From NCBI GenBank assembly GCA_964016885.1, contig OZ024741.1:44454001-44518000 (forward strand): a DNA stretch of 64,000 bases, written 5' to 3'. The translations under genes were made by a program, and so were the position numbers. The notes beneath the pieces are model-generated. The model was not told where the DNA came from, did no database searches, and was given only the letters and a program-made list of their open reading frames with translations. Source of the stretch: Eledone cirrhosa. Its lineage: Eukaryota. Positions 22,311-45,098 of this stretch are shown one piece after another. Position 1 is the stretch's first letter, and the number at the start of each line of letters is the position of its first letter.

Positions 22311-22980
22311 GGTACTAAGACATAACATATATATTTGCTAGCATAGGTGAACATCTAGGTGAACATATAGGTACTAAGACATAACATATATATTTGCTAG
22401 CATAGGTGAACATATGTACACATATGTTGGTATATGTACTAATTCTCTATATTTATCTCCAAATTATTTGTTGAGCAAAACTTGCCAAAATTTACTGCTG
22501 ATTCATGGTAGTAGTAGGCTCTTGTCATAATACCACCCCGCTCCTAACTGATTAACCTCAGTGTCACGTGAGTGATTGATTATTTAGAATGACCAGAGGC
22601 AGTGAATGTTTTCAGTGCTCCGGAATTTAGTCCTCGCTAGCTTTATTCCATCCACTGAATTATTATTATTTTTATATGGGTTCTAGTATCTGGGCATCGC
22701 CTGGGAACTTAGTTGAGAATAGACTCCCTGATGACGTAAGGAATTCTCTATAGTTATATTATGTAACTATATTTATCCCCTTACAGAAACTAATTAGTTG
22801 GAGTGAAAATTTTAGTAAGTAAGTTGATTTTTAATTTTTAAAATTTTCTTATTTTACGTCTTTCATATAATTGTTCTGCAGCCCCCTGCATAGAACCACA
22901 AAGGTACTAAGACATAACATATATATTTGCTAGCATAGGTGAACATCTGTACACATATGTTGGTAAATGTACTAATTCTC
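22311..22980 (+). mobile_element. Non-coding HHR-bearing element with terminal direct repeats (533 bp period); retrozyme-like
   Basis: GGTACTAAGACATAACATATATATTTGCTAGCATAGGTGAACAT at 22311, 22370 and 22903; HHR at 22723. Confidence 0.7.
22723..22804 (+). ncRNA. Type I hammerhead ribozyme with extended helix II
   Basis: ACTCC-CTGATGA-c-GTAAGG..(ATAGTTA/TAACTAT hairpin)..CCTTAC-a-GAAAC TAATTA GTT-GGAGT. Helix I is perfect and AACTAATTAGTT is palindromic. Confidence 0.8.
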
Positions 22981-23562
22981 TCTCTCTCTCTCTATATATA
23001 TATATACATATATATGTATATATATATATATATTTATAAATATACACACGCATATATATATATATAGAGAGAGAGGGATAGTTCACAATAATTGTGTAAA
23101 CACATACAGGTACACCCACACACACACACGCGGGCACACACAGACATATATACATACATAGAGTCAGACAGACATATAAAGCAATCTCTCGTTCTTTAGC
23201 GGTCATGAACTAATATGACGTCAATGCCAAAACGCATGTAATTACTGTAAGATAGTAAATGTTAAGATACATAGATTCAGGCGTAATATCTTTTGAAACT
23301 TCAATGAGTATATCTCAAGGCAATCAATGACAGAATATACGATTACATTATCTTTAATTCTACTCTCATTTCCGTTTAATTTGCAATTGTATATTTTTTT
23401 GTCCTTTTTTTCCTTTCATGCAATCCATCGTTTAGTAACTTTCATTACAAATATTTTCCATTAATCTATTATATATATGTATATATGTACATATATATAT
23501 ATATATATATATATACATAAAACCACATATATATATATAGAGAGAGAGATAGATAGATATAT

Positions 23563-24080
23563 ACGTCTGTATACATATATGATGTACGTATACATACATA
23601 CATTTAAGTAAGTGCCTTACTAAGAGTGAGAAATGAAATTTCGTTTCATTCTATTCCATTAATCGTTTTCGGTGCGCCCGGCCGACTAAAATCACTCGTT
23701 ATGCAAATTAGGCTGCTCAGCCGTTAATATGCATAAGGAAAGTATATACTTTCAGACGTTCAACCATCTGGCAGGAAGGTATACGATGTTGACGATAGCT
23801 AATAAGCTTGAAACTAGTACATTGATCCTGTGTCAGTGTTGAACAAAAAGGTGACGTGGTTGCCTAAACACTGTACGGTGTAATTCGGGCTGTTTGTTTT
23901 TTATTTCAAACAAACAAACCGATACGTGCATATATATATGTGTGCATGTCTGTATATATATATATACAACTGTGCGTCTGTATACATATATGTATGTACG
24001 TACACAGACATACATATTTACATTTAAGTAGGTGCTGTACTAAGAGTGAGAAATGAAATTTCGTTTCATTCTATTCCATT
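23563..24080 (+). mobile_element. Non-coding ~420 bp unit, about 1.2 copies, carrying an HHR; retrozyme-like
   Basis: TAAGAGTGAGAAATGAAATTTCGTTTCATTCTATTCCATT at 23621 and 24041. Relatives at 45320-45975 and 51925-52132. Flanked by (TA)n. Confidence 0.75.
23784..23824 (+). ncRNA. Minimal type I hammerhead ribozyme
   Basis: CGATG-TTGACGA-t-AGCT aata AGCT-t-GAAAC TA GTA-CATTG; ACTAGT palindrome; U at core position 3. Confidence 0.65.
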
Positions 24081-24186
24081 TATATATATATATATATATA
24101 TATATATATATATATATATATAAATATATATATTTATATATATATATATAAATATATATATTTATATATATATATATATATATATA

Positions 24187-24608
24187 TAAACAATTGAATT
24201 AAAAATGTACATCCACATATGTATACTGAAATACTAGTATGCATATGAATACACACACGTGTACATATGTAGATGTACCGAGTTTTTCACTGGACACTTT
24301 ACTGTGAGTGTCCAGCTATTCTGTATGTAAACACACAGACAAACCGGTTTTTAGAGTCATACTGGTTTTCGAGGAAACACCTTTCCTCTATTCTCCAGAA
24401 AGCATAGAGGAAAGGTGTTTCCTCGAAAACCAGTATGACTCTAAAAACCGGTTTGTCTGTGTGTTTACATACAGAATAGCTGGACACTCACAGTAAAGTG
24501 TCCAGTGAAAAACTCGGTACATCTACATATGTACACGTGTGTGTATTCATATGCATACTAGTATTTCAGTATACATATGTGGATGTACATTTTTAATTTA
24601 ATTGTTTA
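24187..24608. repeat. Near-perfect palindrome with 205 bp arms and a 12 nt spacer
   Basis: 24187-24391 is the reverse complement of 24404-24608, with one mismatch seen; spacer TCTCCAGAAAGC. Confidence 0.92.
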
Positions 24609-41706: not shown

Positions 41707-42061
41707 TATATATATATATGTACATATAATATATATATATATATAAATATGTATATATATATATGTATATATATAATATATATATATAAATATATATGTA
41801 TATATATATAAATATATATGTATATATATATAAATATATGTATATATATATAAATATATATGTATATATATAAATATTTATGTATATATATATATTTATG
41901 TATATATATATAAATAAATATTTATGTATATATATATATATTTATGTATATATATATATATATTTATATATATATATATAAATATATATATATATATACT
42001 TATATATATATATATATATATAAATATATTTGTATATATATATATATATATATATATATAT

Positions 42062-43740
42062 ATAATAAATAACAAAGAACGCCTATAGCATATGCATATC
42101 TTTACTTGCTAACATTGTTTCATCCGCACTATAAGTGGGACTCATCAGAGCATAAAGGTTAATTACATACCATACAAGCAATAACAAATCCAAGACATTG
42201 AAGAATGAAAAATAATATTAGACGATAAAGGATATTAAGGAAGTAAAAGTAAAAATAAAGATAAGAATAAAAATAAAAATAAAAATAAAAATAAGAATAA
42301 GATAATAAAATAAACAATGAAAAATGAGCAATGAAAAATAAGGGGTGCTATCAGTCACAGTTGGGCGGGGTGCTGTCAACATATAGTTACTTACAAGCAT
42401 ACACATGGATAAGAGAACAGACAAGAGTAGATAAGATAGATGTGATTAGGTAAGAGTAGGTAAAAAATAGGTGAAAAACAGACTTATAATATATATAAGA
42501 AAATATAAAGAAATACATAACAAACTTACATATAAAATATAAAATATACAGATAATAGTGATACAGGGTAAGGAATGAGATAAAATAATATAAAATTAAA
42601 ATTAAAATTATATAAAATAGAACATAATATAATATAATCGTAAAATAAGATAAAATAAGGTAAACTAAAATCAAATAACATAGACTAAATTAAAATAATA
42701 TAATATAAGATATAATTAAATGTATAATTAAATGTAATTAAATGTAATTAAATAAATAAATAAATAAATAAATAAATAAATAAATAAAAATTAAATAAAT
42801 AAATAAAATTAAAATTTAAATTTAAATTTAAATAAATAAATAAATAAATAAATAAATAAATGGAGTTAAATAAGTAAATAAATAAAATTAGATAACATGA
42901 AATGAAATAAAATAAAATAAAATAAAATGAAATAAAGTAAATTGAGATAAGATATATATTTTTTTAGAATATATCTCTTGAATATATCAGGGGCCCACGA
43001 AGGCACTAAGTGTCACAGTTATGTGTATCACTTGACCATTTTTTTTAAAAATATTTCTTGAAAACATCAGGGGCCCACGAAGGCACTAAGTGTCACAGTC
43101 ACCAGTATCACTTGACCATTGCAAGGCAATGGAGGCGTCCCAGGTTGGGCAGTCCCAAAAGTTCACTCGAAAGTCACGGGTGTGCATTCACACAGTTGAG
43201 CGGTGGGATAATCACAAATCGGTTCACACCCGGGCAGGAGTCGAATGGTCAGAGAGAGGTGCATCGAAGGAGGTAGAAGAATTCACGTGCATTAGCAAGC
43301 GAGGTGCAGGCGGGTTAGCCAAAGCAAGCAGACACAGTTGTAGCGCATACAAAAGATATTTAAAAAAAGACAGAAGATATATAAAAAATAGCTTCAAGAG
43401 CCATTAAGTCACCGCATTGGGACATCACAAGATTGTACACATCAATATGTTCAGCACGTATATGCACATATACACACCACATGCATATGCAGAGACGGTA
43501 TACATATATATATATATATATATTTTTATATACAGACACATACAACCACCTACACCCATACACATATAAATGTATACACGGACACACACGCACACACACA
43601 CAGCGTAGGACACCCGGGTCAAAGCTGATATTAAACACCGTAATACCACATTAGACCAGACCCACCACCACAAGTAATACATTCAAAATAAATACATATA
43701 GTGGAGTGTTATACACCCCTGATCCTTTCCCTAGTATACT
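42062..43740 (-). mobile_element. Non-coding PLE-like 3' region or non-autonomous element ending in an HHR, between (TA)n arrays
   Basis: Strong strand bias like the PLE-B 3' UTR; HHR about 45 nt from the minus-strand 3' end; internal ~78 bp tandem duplication at 42960-43120. Confidence 0.55.
42107..42152 (-). ncRNA. Minimal type I hammerhead ribozyme
   Basis: TGCT-CTGATGA-GTCC CACT tat AGTG c GGAT-GAAAC AAT GTT-AGCA. Confidence 0.8.
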
Positions 43741-43912
43741 ATATATATATATATATATATATATATATATATATATATATATAAATATATTTGTATATAT
43801 ATATATATAAATATATATGTATATATATACACATATATTTATATATATATATACATATATTTATATATATATATATACATATATTTGTATATATATATAT
43901 ATAAATATATAT

Positions 43913-45098
43913 AGATATACTTTAACTTTAATTATATCTCATAAAATAATACAACTGGTTTTTCCACATTATACATATTGTTGGCACCCCAAACACTTAA
44001 ATTGGGTTTATATTTTAATATAACCTAATGTTTGTTGAGTGAGATGGTTACCAGTCAGAGTTTAGTTTTAAACTATCTCTGTTTTTGTATTAAATATTTA
44101 CTCTTGATTGGCCGGAGGTGTTTATTTCCAGGTACCTTATGAATTTGACTTTCCGTATTTATTACTGTTTTTAGATATTGTGGCTTTTTTTCGGTTATAA
44201 CTTCTCTGTTTTTTAGCCTAAGAAAATATATATATATGCCTACTTATATAATTACATGCATATATGTATTTATTTTCTTTTATTAATTGAGTTCTTTACA
44301 CGAGGAATTGATATTGGTTTTGAAATAACTAATTAACCCGAGTGTGTTTTATATTTTACTCTTAATTCGGCCGGAGAATTATATTCCCATTTGCCCTTTA
44401 TAGCATAACTTTCTGCATTTACTGCGGTCATGAGAAGCGGTTCTTATTCGGGTACAACTTCTGATTTAGCCTCAGAAAATATCTATAGGCGTGTGTAATT
44501 TATACAAGCATGTATTTATTTTTTTTATTTTCAATTGAGTTCTTAAACACGTCGGATTGATAATGTTTTCAAAAAAACTAATTAAACCGCATGTATATTA
44601 TTTTTTTTCCTCATTTCGTGGATTGTCTCCCCTTCCCGCTTCGTGTCGCTATGATACTTCCTCAGTCAAAAACTGCTGGAATTTCAAATTTGGCGGCCAT
44701 TCGAGGTGGGAGAGAGCTACTGTACGGACATGATTTTTGACAGCGGTAAGAAATTTGTTTTCTTATATCAATGTTTAATGGGCTTCCACTGACGATTTAT
44801 AAGTGCCCACCTAAATATATTCTTACATGAATATATATTAGGCTTCTACATAAACTGGAAACATTCTCCCAAACTTGTAGAAAACTTATAATGAAACAAT
44901 TGTTTGGAAAGAGAGATATACTTTAACTTTAATTATATCTCATAAAATAATACAACTGGTTTTTCCACATTATACATATTGTTGGCACCCCAAACACTTA
45001 AATTGGGTTTATATTTTAATATAACCTAATGTTTGTTGAGTGAGATGGTTACCAGTCAGAGTTTAGCTTTAAACTATCTCTGTTATTCTATTAAATAT
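43913..45098 (+). mobile_element. Non-coding 1001 bp unit with ~185 bp terminal direct repeats and a very large HHR; retrozyme-like
   Basis: 43913-44097 matches 44914-45098; internal ~258 bp imperfect tandem repeat; (TA)n flanks. Confidence 0.8.
44784..44909 (+). ncRNA. Type I hammerhead ribozyme with a ~97 nt branched helix II domain
   Basis: TTCCA-CTGACGA-t-TTATAAGT..[CCTAA-ATATATTC/GAATATAT-ATTAGG][TTCTACA/TGTAGAA]..ACTTATAA-t-GAAAC AATT GTT-TGGAA; AACAATTGTT palindrome. Confidence 0.82.

What the first reader, a model, noticed from the sequence alone, without database searches (positions are those of the whole stretch)
22723..44909. Recurrent hammerhead variant: mismatch at the base of helix II, large branched helix II, palindromic helix III
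Seen in unrelated families: the position 10.1/11.1 pair is C.A (22723), U.U (23784, 44784, 2938) or A.A (28067, 41343) instead of the usual G-C. Helix II domains reach about 50-100 nt with internal hairpins. Helix III is self-complementary (AACTAATTAGTT, ACTAGT, ACACGTGT, ACCATGGT, AACAATTGTT, ACTACGTAGT). Known: palindromic loop III allows dimeric HHR cleavage. Recurrence argues for a real structural subclass that standard descriptors would miss.
Basis: partly seen in the sequence, partly recalled or inferred. Interest (0 to 1): 0.8.

Follow-up and report, generated by a model that had tools for sequence, protein, structure and literature searches.

The report
Mismatch-tolerant hammerheads with hidden pseudoknot
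These are hammerhead-type RNA motifs carried by tens of thousands of Penelope-like jumping-gene copies, in which a normally fixed base pair is inherited as a mismatch (partly already in print), and several families have an overlooked extra pairing that is predicted to brace the fold, so they likely still cut themselves.

Summary
The six motifs are real type I hammerheads, and the 10.1/11.1 mismatch is inherited, not copy decay. Family 22723 has A11.1 in 815 of 821 matches; family 23784 has U.U in 97 of the first 100 of 27,544. The 28067 motif flanks an intact Hydra-clade Penelope-like ORF; four of the others form 0.45-1.0 kb tandem units with no ORF found. In unrelated metagenomes, 24 of 48 Hydra-clade hammerheads carry U.U. 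That state is already in print (Perreault 2011; axolotl retrozyme, active as a dimer; 14 of 25 Hydra families in Craig 2021 File S2).

The three traits are not one subclass: two motifs have a short helix II, one is branched, and long helix II also occurs with G-C.

Not found in my searches: family-fixed A.A and A.C, and a predicted 5-6 bp pseudoknot between the 5' flank and the first loop of long helix II. It covaries across seven families (permutation P=0.0004; four were spotted by eye first). Cleavage is untested and no RNA run was listed. This scan earlier noted long-armed Hydra hammerheads in other genomes, and a different stem II mismatch in this one.

The parts
22723..22804 (+). Type I hammerhead, family 22723: helix I 5 bp, core at 22728, C10.1.A11.1 (22735/22785), 51-nt helix II with one inner hairpin, palindromic helix III 22789-22798, U17 at 22799
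   Evidence: A11.1 in 815 of 821 genome matches; covariation; tandem unit about 520-560 bp
22715..22720 (+). Predicted pseudoknot 5' strand (pairs with 22743-22748 in the first internal loop of helix II)
23784..23824 (+). Type I hammerhead, family 23784: U10.1.U11.1 (23796/23809), short 4-bp helix II, 6-nt palindromic helix III; this copy has U3 and a damaged helix I
   Evidence: 27,544 exact pattern matches, 97 of the first 100 U.U
28067..28182 (+). Type I hammerhead of an autonomous Hydra-clade element (3' end fragment here): A10.1.A11.1 (28079/28165), 87-nt helix II, helix III 28169-28176, C17
   Evidence: 26 of 26 copies A.A; flanks an intact ORF on both sides in L235 and L236
41343..41420 (+). 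Type I hammerhead, family 41343: A.A at 10.1/11.1 (41356/41403) and at 10.2/11.2, 48-nt helix II, helix III 41407-41414
   Evidence: tandem unit about 660 bp
41338..41342 (+). Predicted pseudoknot 5' strand (pairs with 41361-41365)
44784..44909 (+). Type I hammerhead, family 44784: U10.1.U11.1 (44796/44892), 97-nt helix II with a junction carrying two hairpins, helix III 44896-44903, U17
   Evidence: tandem unit about 1,000 bp
44779..44783 (+). Predicted pseudoknot 5' strand (pairs with junction linker 44805-44809)
2938..2981 (+). Truncated type I hammerhead, family 2938: U.U (2945/2956), 3-bp helix II, 4-bp helix III; 5' strand of helix I lost in this copy
   Evidence: 47 of 47 copies U.U; intact helix I with compensatory change in other copies
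38106..38199 (+). Contrast motif: long helix II and predicted pseudoknot (38106-38110 with 38132-38136) but G10.1-C11.1 and a U3-A8 core; second copy about 590 bp downstream
46270..50085 (+). 5'-truncated Hydra-clade Penelope-like element (RT, CxCx5C linker, GIY-YIG) and the G-C hammerhead at 50048 downstream of it; context for the likely mobilising clade

Best explanation
These motifs are type I hammerheads at the ends of a Hydra-clade Penelope-like retrotransposon and of non-autonomous tandem repeats that likely depend on such elements, and each family inherits a non-canonical pair at 10.1/11.1 that is likely tolerated, slowing but not abolishing self-cleavage. Inferred working: a transcript through a tandem array or both terminal repeats holds two motifs. 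Their palindromic helix III strands pair with each other to complete the active site. In families 22723, 41343, 44784 and 38112, a predicted 5-6 bp pseudoknot between the 5' flank and the first loop of the long helix II docks helix II on helix I. Cleavage after N17 would release unit-length RNA, and the Hydra RT/GIY-YIG protein would copy RNA into (TA)n. Shown: sequence, fixation, covariation, Hydra link for 28067. Inferred: dimer, pseudoknot, cleavage, rate effect, partner of the non-autonomous families.
For: Fixation: 815 of 821; 97 of first 100; 72 of 73 rows of the window's subfamily have U11.1. Structure kept after the mismatch arose: family 22723 has 6 of 21 pairs changed on both sides while C.A stays in 3 of 4 subfamilies. 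In the 44784 lineage U.U arose on the old helix III, which then changed G-C to A-U on both sides. A.A flanks intact 770-aa ORFs with RWK, DKT, CxCx5C, CxxC and CxH motifs. Of 76 Hydra-type metagenome loci, 48 have a sense-strand motif: 24 U.U, 16 G-C, 4 G.U, 3 A-U, 1 bulged G-C; 0 hits in 3 shuffles. The state follows the RT tree with 7 switches against a shuffled mean of 19. Perfect palindromes form no monomer hairpin but give duplexes of -4.8 to -12.9 kcal/mol. Pseudoknot. Literature: a natural U.U variant, and pseudoknots supporting a 1-bp stem II (PMC3088659); an axolotl U.U retrozyme that cleaves 22% in 1 h as monomer and better as dimer (PMC7229834); removing N7 of G10.1 costs about 30-fold (PMC6795133).
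Against: No cleavage or expression data. A.A, C.A and A.C have no activity data in anything I read. The 41343 lineage looks like stepwise erosion (G-C, A-U, A.A, two A.A). One Hydra family has a U4A core change in 3 of 3 copies seen. Cleavage was dispensable for insertion in vitro in another Penelope-like element (PMC11167929). Minimum-energy cofolding gave the dimer hammerhead fold for 4 of 7 motifs only; 28067, 44784 and 2938 folded otherwise. The pseudoknot is absent in 8 of 15 long-helix families, including autonomous 28067, and in 47 short-helix metagenome motifs. In 4 of 7 families another family's loop pairs as well or better in energy. No ORF partner was found for five of the six families.
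Confidence: 0.58

Rival explanations
1. Relaxed selection: catalysis is no longer needed in some lineages, and the mismatch is decay fixed in successful master copies; the fold survives for another role such as protein binding.
For: Stepwise loss in the 41343 lineage; U4A-core Hydra family; U3 in a subset of 23784 copies; U17 in several mismatch families; cleavage dispensable in vitro for PAc.
Against: Core intact in 48 protein-selected loci, half of them U.U; U.U stable over long RT branches; compensatory changes after the mismatch; published U.U motifs cleave.
Confidence: 0.2
2. The mismatch is positively selected, as a brake on cleavage or a contact for the element's protein, and defines a real structural subclass.
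For: At least 7 switches on the tree; G-C to U.U needs two changes; a U.U family switched to C.A on both sides rather than to a pair; uncleaved RNA is the main insertion substrate for PAc.
Against: Four different mismatches occur; G-C lineages are as successful (a Hydra family with at least 150 copies identical over 146 aa has G-C); long helix II and pseudoknot occur with both states.
Confidence: 0.14
3. Register shift: in some families the two 'mismatched' bases are single-base insertions on either side of a true G10.1-C11.1 pair.
For: The next pair is G-C in family 22723 and in L211; an extra N10 is usual in Penelope-like hammerheads and the 2014 descriptor allows extra N10 and N11.
Against: The next pair is A-U, U-A or C-G in the other five families; sister subfamilies with G-C have the same helix length, so the change is a substitution.
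Confidence: 0.07
4. Chance matches in AT-rich DNA.
For: The window is 11% (TA)n against 3% in random stretches.
Against: 7 observed against a mean of 0.035 in shuffles; thousands of genomic copies; position in terminal repeats of an intact element.
Confidence: 0.01

Closest known systems
Hydra-clade Penelope-like elements and their hammerheads (Craig et al. 2021, PMC8557442, section 11 and File S2)
   Same: RWK, DKT, CxCx5C, (TA)n targeting; type I hammerhead with short self-complementary helix III. My reading of File S2: 14 of 25 Hydra families have U.U, 1 U.C, 2 G.U, 7 G-C, 1 bulge plus A-U. C.A appears there in a Chara element.
   Different: The paper calls them canonical and, in the passages read, does not remark on the mismatch. 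Its Hydra helix II loops are at most 10 nt. No A.A, A.C, 48-97 nt helix II or pseudoknot in Hydra rows.
Non-LTR retrozymes, notably axolotl HHR_Amex2 (PMC7229834)
   Same: Non-coding tandem units with one type I hammerhead each; a U.U mismatch at the base of helix II in about 60,000 copies; better cleavage as a dimer.
   Different: Published units are about 170-400 nt with short helix II and loop-loop contacts. Here units reach 1 kb, helix II is long in three families and the predicted contact is a pseudoknot. I saw the text only, not the figure, so the exact position of the axolotl U.U is taken from the wording.
Minimal hammerheads of Penelope-like elements (Cervera and de la Pena 2014, PMC4209133)
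   Same: Position in terminal repeats, palindromic helix III, proposed dimer action; Fig. S3 lists one U.U example from Hydra magnipapillata.
   Different: Consensus has an extra base after A9 and G10.1-C11.1; the motifs here lack the extra base, have a 6-16 nt helix III and some have a predicted tertiary contact.
Pseudoknotted hammerheads of microbes and phages (Perreault et al. 2011, PMC3088659)
   Same: Watson-Crick pseudoknot between stems I and II in about 40% of their set; tolerates very weak stem II; one natural U10.1-U11.1 variant.
   Different: Here the partner strand is an internal loop or junction of a long helix II that continues into hairpins, in animal repeats with a dimer-type helix III.

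Membership tests
Type I hammerhead ribozyme | Core C3-A9 and G12-A14 with A15.1-U16.1 and H17 | tested here: met
   All six; the 23784 copy has U3, most family copies seen have C3
Type I hammerhead ribozyme | Three helices, helix I open, supported by covariation | tested here: met
   helix I is missing in the window's 2938 copy but present in the family
Type I hammerhead ribozyme | G10.1-C11.1 (commonest, not obligatory) | tested here: not met
   Non-canonical in all six families; published active exceptions
Type I hammerhead ribozyme | Site-specific self-cleavage after N17 | not testable with these tools
   Needs an assay
Hydra-clade Penelope-like element | Single ORF RT plus C-terminal GIY-YIG with RWK, DKT, CxCx5C, CxxC, CxH (family 28067) | tested here: met
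   L235 and L236, motifs read against the paper's description
Hydra-clade Penelope-like element | Hammerhead in both terminal repeats; 3' end in (TA)n (family 28067) | tested here: met
   Motifs at 1509 and 5097 around ORF 1792-4137 in L235; window copy ends in (TA)n
Hydra-clade Penelope-like element | Link to a Hydra ORF for families 22723, 23784, 41343, 44784, 2938 | tested here: inconclusive
   No collinear ORF in the loci examined; nearby ORFs were nested insertions
Non-LTR retrozyme | Non-coding tandem units, one type I hammerhead per unit | tested here: met
   Periods of about 440-500, 520-560, 600, 660 and 1,000 bp; not shown for 2938
Non-LTR retrozyme | Expressed as self-cleaved circular RNA | not testable with these tools
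   No RNA holder listed
Pseudoknotted hammerhead | Complementary strands linking stems I and II, covarying | tested here: met
   7 of 15 long-helix families; permutation among the seven P=0.0004; partly post hoc
Pseudoknotted hammerhead | Rate depends on the pseudoknot | not testable with these tools
   Needs disruption and rescue mutants
Naiad Penelope-like element (considered) | N-terminal endonuclease | tested here: not met
   The linked ORF has a C-terminal GIY-YIG

The most novel reading that the evidence does not exclude
A lineage of animal retrozyme-like repeats has evolved a hammerhead architecture not found in my searches: loop II opened into a platform that forms a Watson-Crick pseudoknot with the 5' flank and carries one or two extra hairpins, combined with a dimer-only helix III. 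This frees the second most conserved pair of the ribozyme to wander through U.U, C.A, A.A and A.C while cleavage continues.
Probability: 0.45. Interest if true: 0.68.

Novelty: new variant of a known kind. Interest (0 to 1): 0.5.

Why it matters
G10.1-C11.1 is treated as nearly fixed, and G10.1 binds a metal ion in structures. Sister subfamilies here differ at that pair on a shared background (G-C, A-U, A.A, U.U), giving a natural series to measure what the pair is worth. The predicted pseudoknot suggests that some hammerheads of Penelope-like repeats, usually described as lacking tertiary contacts and slow, may be braced and fast. That bears on the open question of what these ribozymes do in transposition. 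Practically, tens of thousands of motifs in one genome are invisible to Rfam and to the 2014 descriptor.

Tried and rejected
Rfam at gathering threshold: 0 hits in the window and 0 in 20 control loci. At E-value threshold, microsatellite-driven miRNA hits swamped the list (270 rows unlisted), and two small regions gave no hammerhead. The repeat finder returned only (TA)n families. Naiad origin was considered because of the 'half-core' notes in File S1 and rejected for 28067. Hydra ORFs next to 23784 copies were nested insertions. A single-protein metagenome scan found nothing; the alignment scan worked. Expression: no RNA holder listed. Two contig runs of unrecorded kind were laid on 44650-45050; no other letter was listed at 10.1 or 11.1, but they are not independent support. 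A pseudoknot in short-helix Hydra motifs: no signal (P=0.52). In one search the L196 row picked a neighbouring duplicate; it was corrected. The five A11.1 Hydra rows as one clade: support 78, neither shown nor rejected. Lunse et al. 2017 (RNA Biol 14:1499) is not held, so overlap with its variants is unchecked.
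Full report
Observation. The window is AT-rich animal DNA from a 3.0-Gb assembly, with 11% (TA)n against 3% in 60 evenly spaced 10-kb stretches. All six cited motifs are type I hammerheads on the + strand with the stated 10.1/11.1 bases. A descriptor blind to that pair finds 7 motifs in the window and a mean of 0.035 in 200 local shuffles. A stricter version finds 2 motifs in the 600-kb sample, both U.U, and none in 5 shuffles. The description needs trimming. Helix II is short at 23784 and 2938. 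Only 44784 is predicted to branch. The palindrome ACTACGTAGT belongs to a G-C motif at 38112. The 2938 copy lacks half of helix I, and 41343 has two stacked A.A.

Is the mismatch the family state? Yes for the window's subfamilies. Exact pattern counts over the whole genome: family 22723 has A at 11.1 in 815 of 821 matches, with 1 G. Family 23784 has 27,544 matches; the first 100 listed are 97 U.U, 2 C.A and 1 C-G. The 44784 group has 2,970 matches; of the first 100, 86 have U11.1, 13 C and 1 G, and 72 of the 73 rows of the window's subfamily have U. The 41343 group has 869 matches; of the first 100, 63 have A (28 from one array), 29 U and 8 C. Copies read in full from fetched loci: 26 of 26 A.A for 28067, 47 of 47 U.U for 2938, 29 of 29 U.U for 44784. 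These loci were mostly the closest hits, but 12 of the 2938 copies and 10 of the 23784 copies came from loci fetched for other queries and agree.

History. Sampling 20 older copies shows two series. The 41343 lineage has G-C, A-U, A.A and double A.A subfamilies. The 44784 lineage has G-C subfamilies with the same branched helix II, U.U on the same helix III, and U.U with a helix III changed on both sides. The order of these steps is inferred, not rooted. In family 22723, four subfamily representatives show 6 of 21 pairs changed on both sides, while C.A stays in three and is U-A in one copy (only 4 rows, structure drawn from one of them). So long helix II and the mismatch are separate traits, and pairing was still maintained after the mismatch arose.

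Element identity. The 28067 motif lies on both sides of an intact 770-aa ORF, 3.6 kb apart, in L235 and L236. The ORF has the RWK, DKT, CxCx5C, CxxC and CxH motifs that define the Hydra clade. Other Hydra ORFs in this genome end in long-helix motifs with C.A (L239, L196, L204) or A.A (L211), or in G-C motifs (L249, L242, window 50048). Families 22723, 23784, 41343 and 44784 form tandem units of about 0.45-1.0 kb, with inverted truncated copies and (TA)n ends. I found no collinear ORF for them or for 2938. They fit non-LTR retrozymes in layout; a Hydra partner is inferred.

Other organisms. An alignment of 60 of the 120 listed homologues retrieved 76 metagenome loci. Of these, 48 have a sense-strand hammerhead: 24 U.U, 16 G-C, 4 G.U, 3 A-U and 1 bulged G-C (3 antisense motifs left out). 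After merging RTs at 90% identity this is 22, 12, 4, 3 and 1 of 42. None has A11.1 or a helix II over 25 nt. On a tree of 57 RT rows (48 metagenome, 9 own), paired versus mismatched needs 7 changes against a shuffled mean of 19 and a minimum of 12 in 500. The state is heritable and switches repeatedly; kin share labels, so this shows inheritance, not selection.

Pseudoknot. In four window families the bases just 5' of helix I are complementary to the first unpaired strand of helix II: 22715-22720 with 22743-22748, 41338-41342 with 41361-41365, 44779-44783 with 44805-44809, and 38106-38110 with 38132-38136. I saw these by eye. Three more families show it with different sequences (L241, and L375 and L174 found afterwards). 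The five-base flank strands read GAGAA, GAGUU, GAGCG, GAGGU, GGGGU, GGAAA and UGGGC, each matched by its own loop. Own pairings sum to -48.5 kcal/mol against -29.3 when permuted among the seven (P=0.0004). There is no signal in 8 other long-helix families (P=0.40) or in 47 short-helix metagenome motifs (P=0.52). Caveats: the test is partly post hoc; the families may be related; some copies or subfamilies lack the pairing (L363, L384, L390, L401, L356); and in 4 of 7 another loop pairs as well in energy. It occurs with G-C, A-U, A.A, A.C, C.A and U.U.

Mechanism. The perfect palindromes form no hairpin alone but give duplexes of -4.8 to -12.9 kcal/mol. Cofolding yields the dimer hammerhead for 22723, 23784, 41343 and 38112, but not for 28067, 44784 or the truncated 2938. 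The likely working is dimer cleavage within tandem transcripts, helix I-II docking by the pseudoknot where present, and a stacked non-canonical pair at 10.1/11.1 that lowers the rate. Loss of the G10.1 N7 metal site costs about 30-fold (PMC6795133, passages). A slower ribozyme may cost little: another Penelope-like hammerhead is protein-assisted and uncleaved RNA is its main insertion substrate (PMC11167929, passages). All of this is inference. Relaxed selection remains the main rival, above all for 41343.

What is known. PMC3088659 (sections 7 and 8 and passages) reports a natural U10.1-U11.1 variant, a filter that rejects such mispairs, and pseudoknots in about 40% of its motifs. PMC4209133 (parts 1-2 of 4 of the text and two of three supplement parts; one supplement file not searchable) calls G10.1-C11.1 highly conserved but lists a U.U Hydra example, and its descriptor allows extra N10 and N11. 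PMC8557442 (section 11, passages and supplement tables) lists U.U in 14 of 25 Hydra families by my count, under 'canonical'. PMC7229834 (section 15 and passages) describes an active U.U retrozyme family. PMC6765202, PMC6155905 and PMC11300833 were seen as passages and bioRxiv 10.64898/2026.07.22.740005 as part 1 of 5. Searches for A.A or C.A families, or for a pseudoknot in animal retroelement hammerheads, showed no report in the listings. Lunse et al. 2017 could not be read and figures are not held, so this negative is limited.

Verdict. The feature is real and inherited. U.U, the palindrome and the dimer model are known. Family-fixed A.A and A.C, the sister series at 10.1/11.1 and the predicted internal-loop pseudoknot appear new. 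New variant of a known kind; interest 0.5.

Noticed in passing
L178, L188, L371 (about 1.0-1.1 kb downstream of the Hydra ORF end): A Hydra family whose hammerhead keeps all three helices and U.U but has A at core position 4 in 3 of 3 copies seen; possibly a catalytically dead but structurally kept motif.
   Followed up: partly
L249-L262: A very young Hydra family (150 of 150 scored hits identical over 146 aa) with a U3-A8 core, G-C at 10.1/11.1, a 54-nt helix II and a 19-nt helix III.
   Followed up: partly
window 23771-23832 and family copies: Family 23784 appears to have an extended helix I with a 5-nt bulge on the 5' side, like canonical retrozyme hammerheads with loop-bulge contacts; read by eye.
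   Followed up: no
window 2938 and L145-L174: Many copies of family 2938 begin within two bases of the core, often at a snap-back inverted junction; may be a reverse-transcription stop at helix I, but my query favoured such copies.
   Followed up: partly
window 25527 (-) and 27411 (+): Another hammerhead family with G.U or G-C at 10.1/11.1, a mismatch at the fourth pair of helix II and an (AU)4 helix III; earlier notes of this scan describe a similar family.
   Followed up: no
window 31577-35637 (-): A second, non-Hydra Penelope-like element (ORF 32281-34902, frameshifted endonuclease) with a canonical extra-base plus G-C hammerhead in both terminal repeats.
   Followed up: partly
window 7193-10979 (-) and 61850-63307 (+): Two broken non-LTR retrotransposons: one with RT and a C-terminal nuclease-like region (R2/R4-like, label recalled), one L1/Tx1-like RT (label recalled); Pfam RVT_1.
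   Followed up: no
window 38112, L249, L242, L246, L018: The U3-A8 core variants read as real families in this genome keep G10.1-C11.1; one metagenome motif (L272) has U3-A8 with U.U, so the link is not strict.
   Followed up: no
PMC8557442 supplement: At the 3' end of one Naiad consensus the GAAA box lies upstream of the CUGAUGA box, which could be a permuted hammerhead behind the 'half-core' notes.
   Followed up: no
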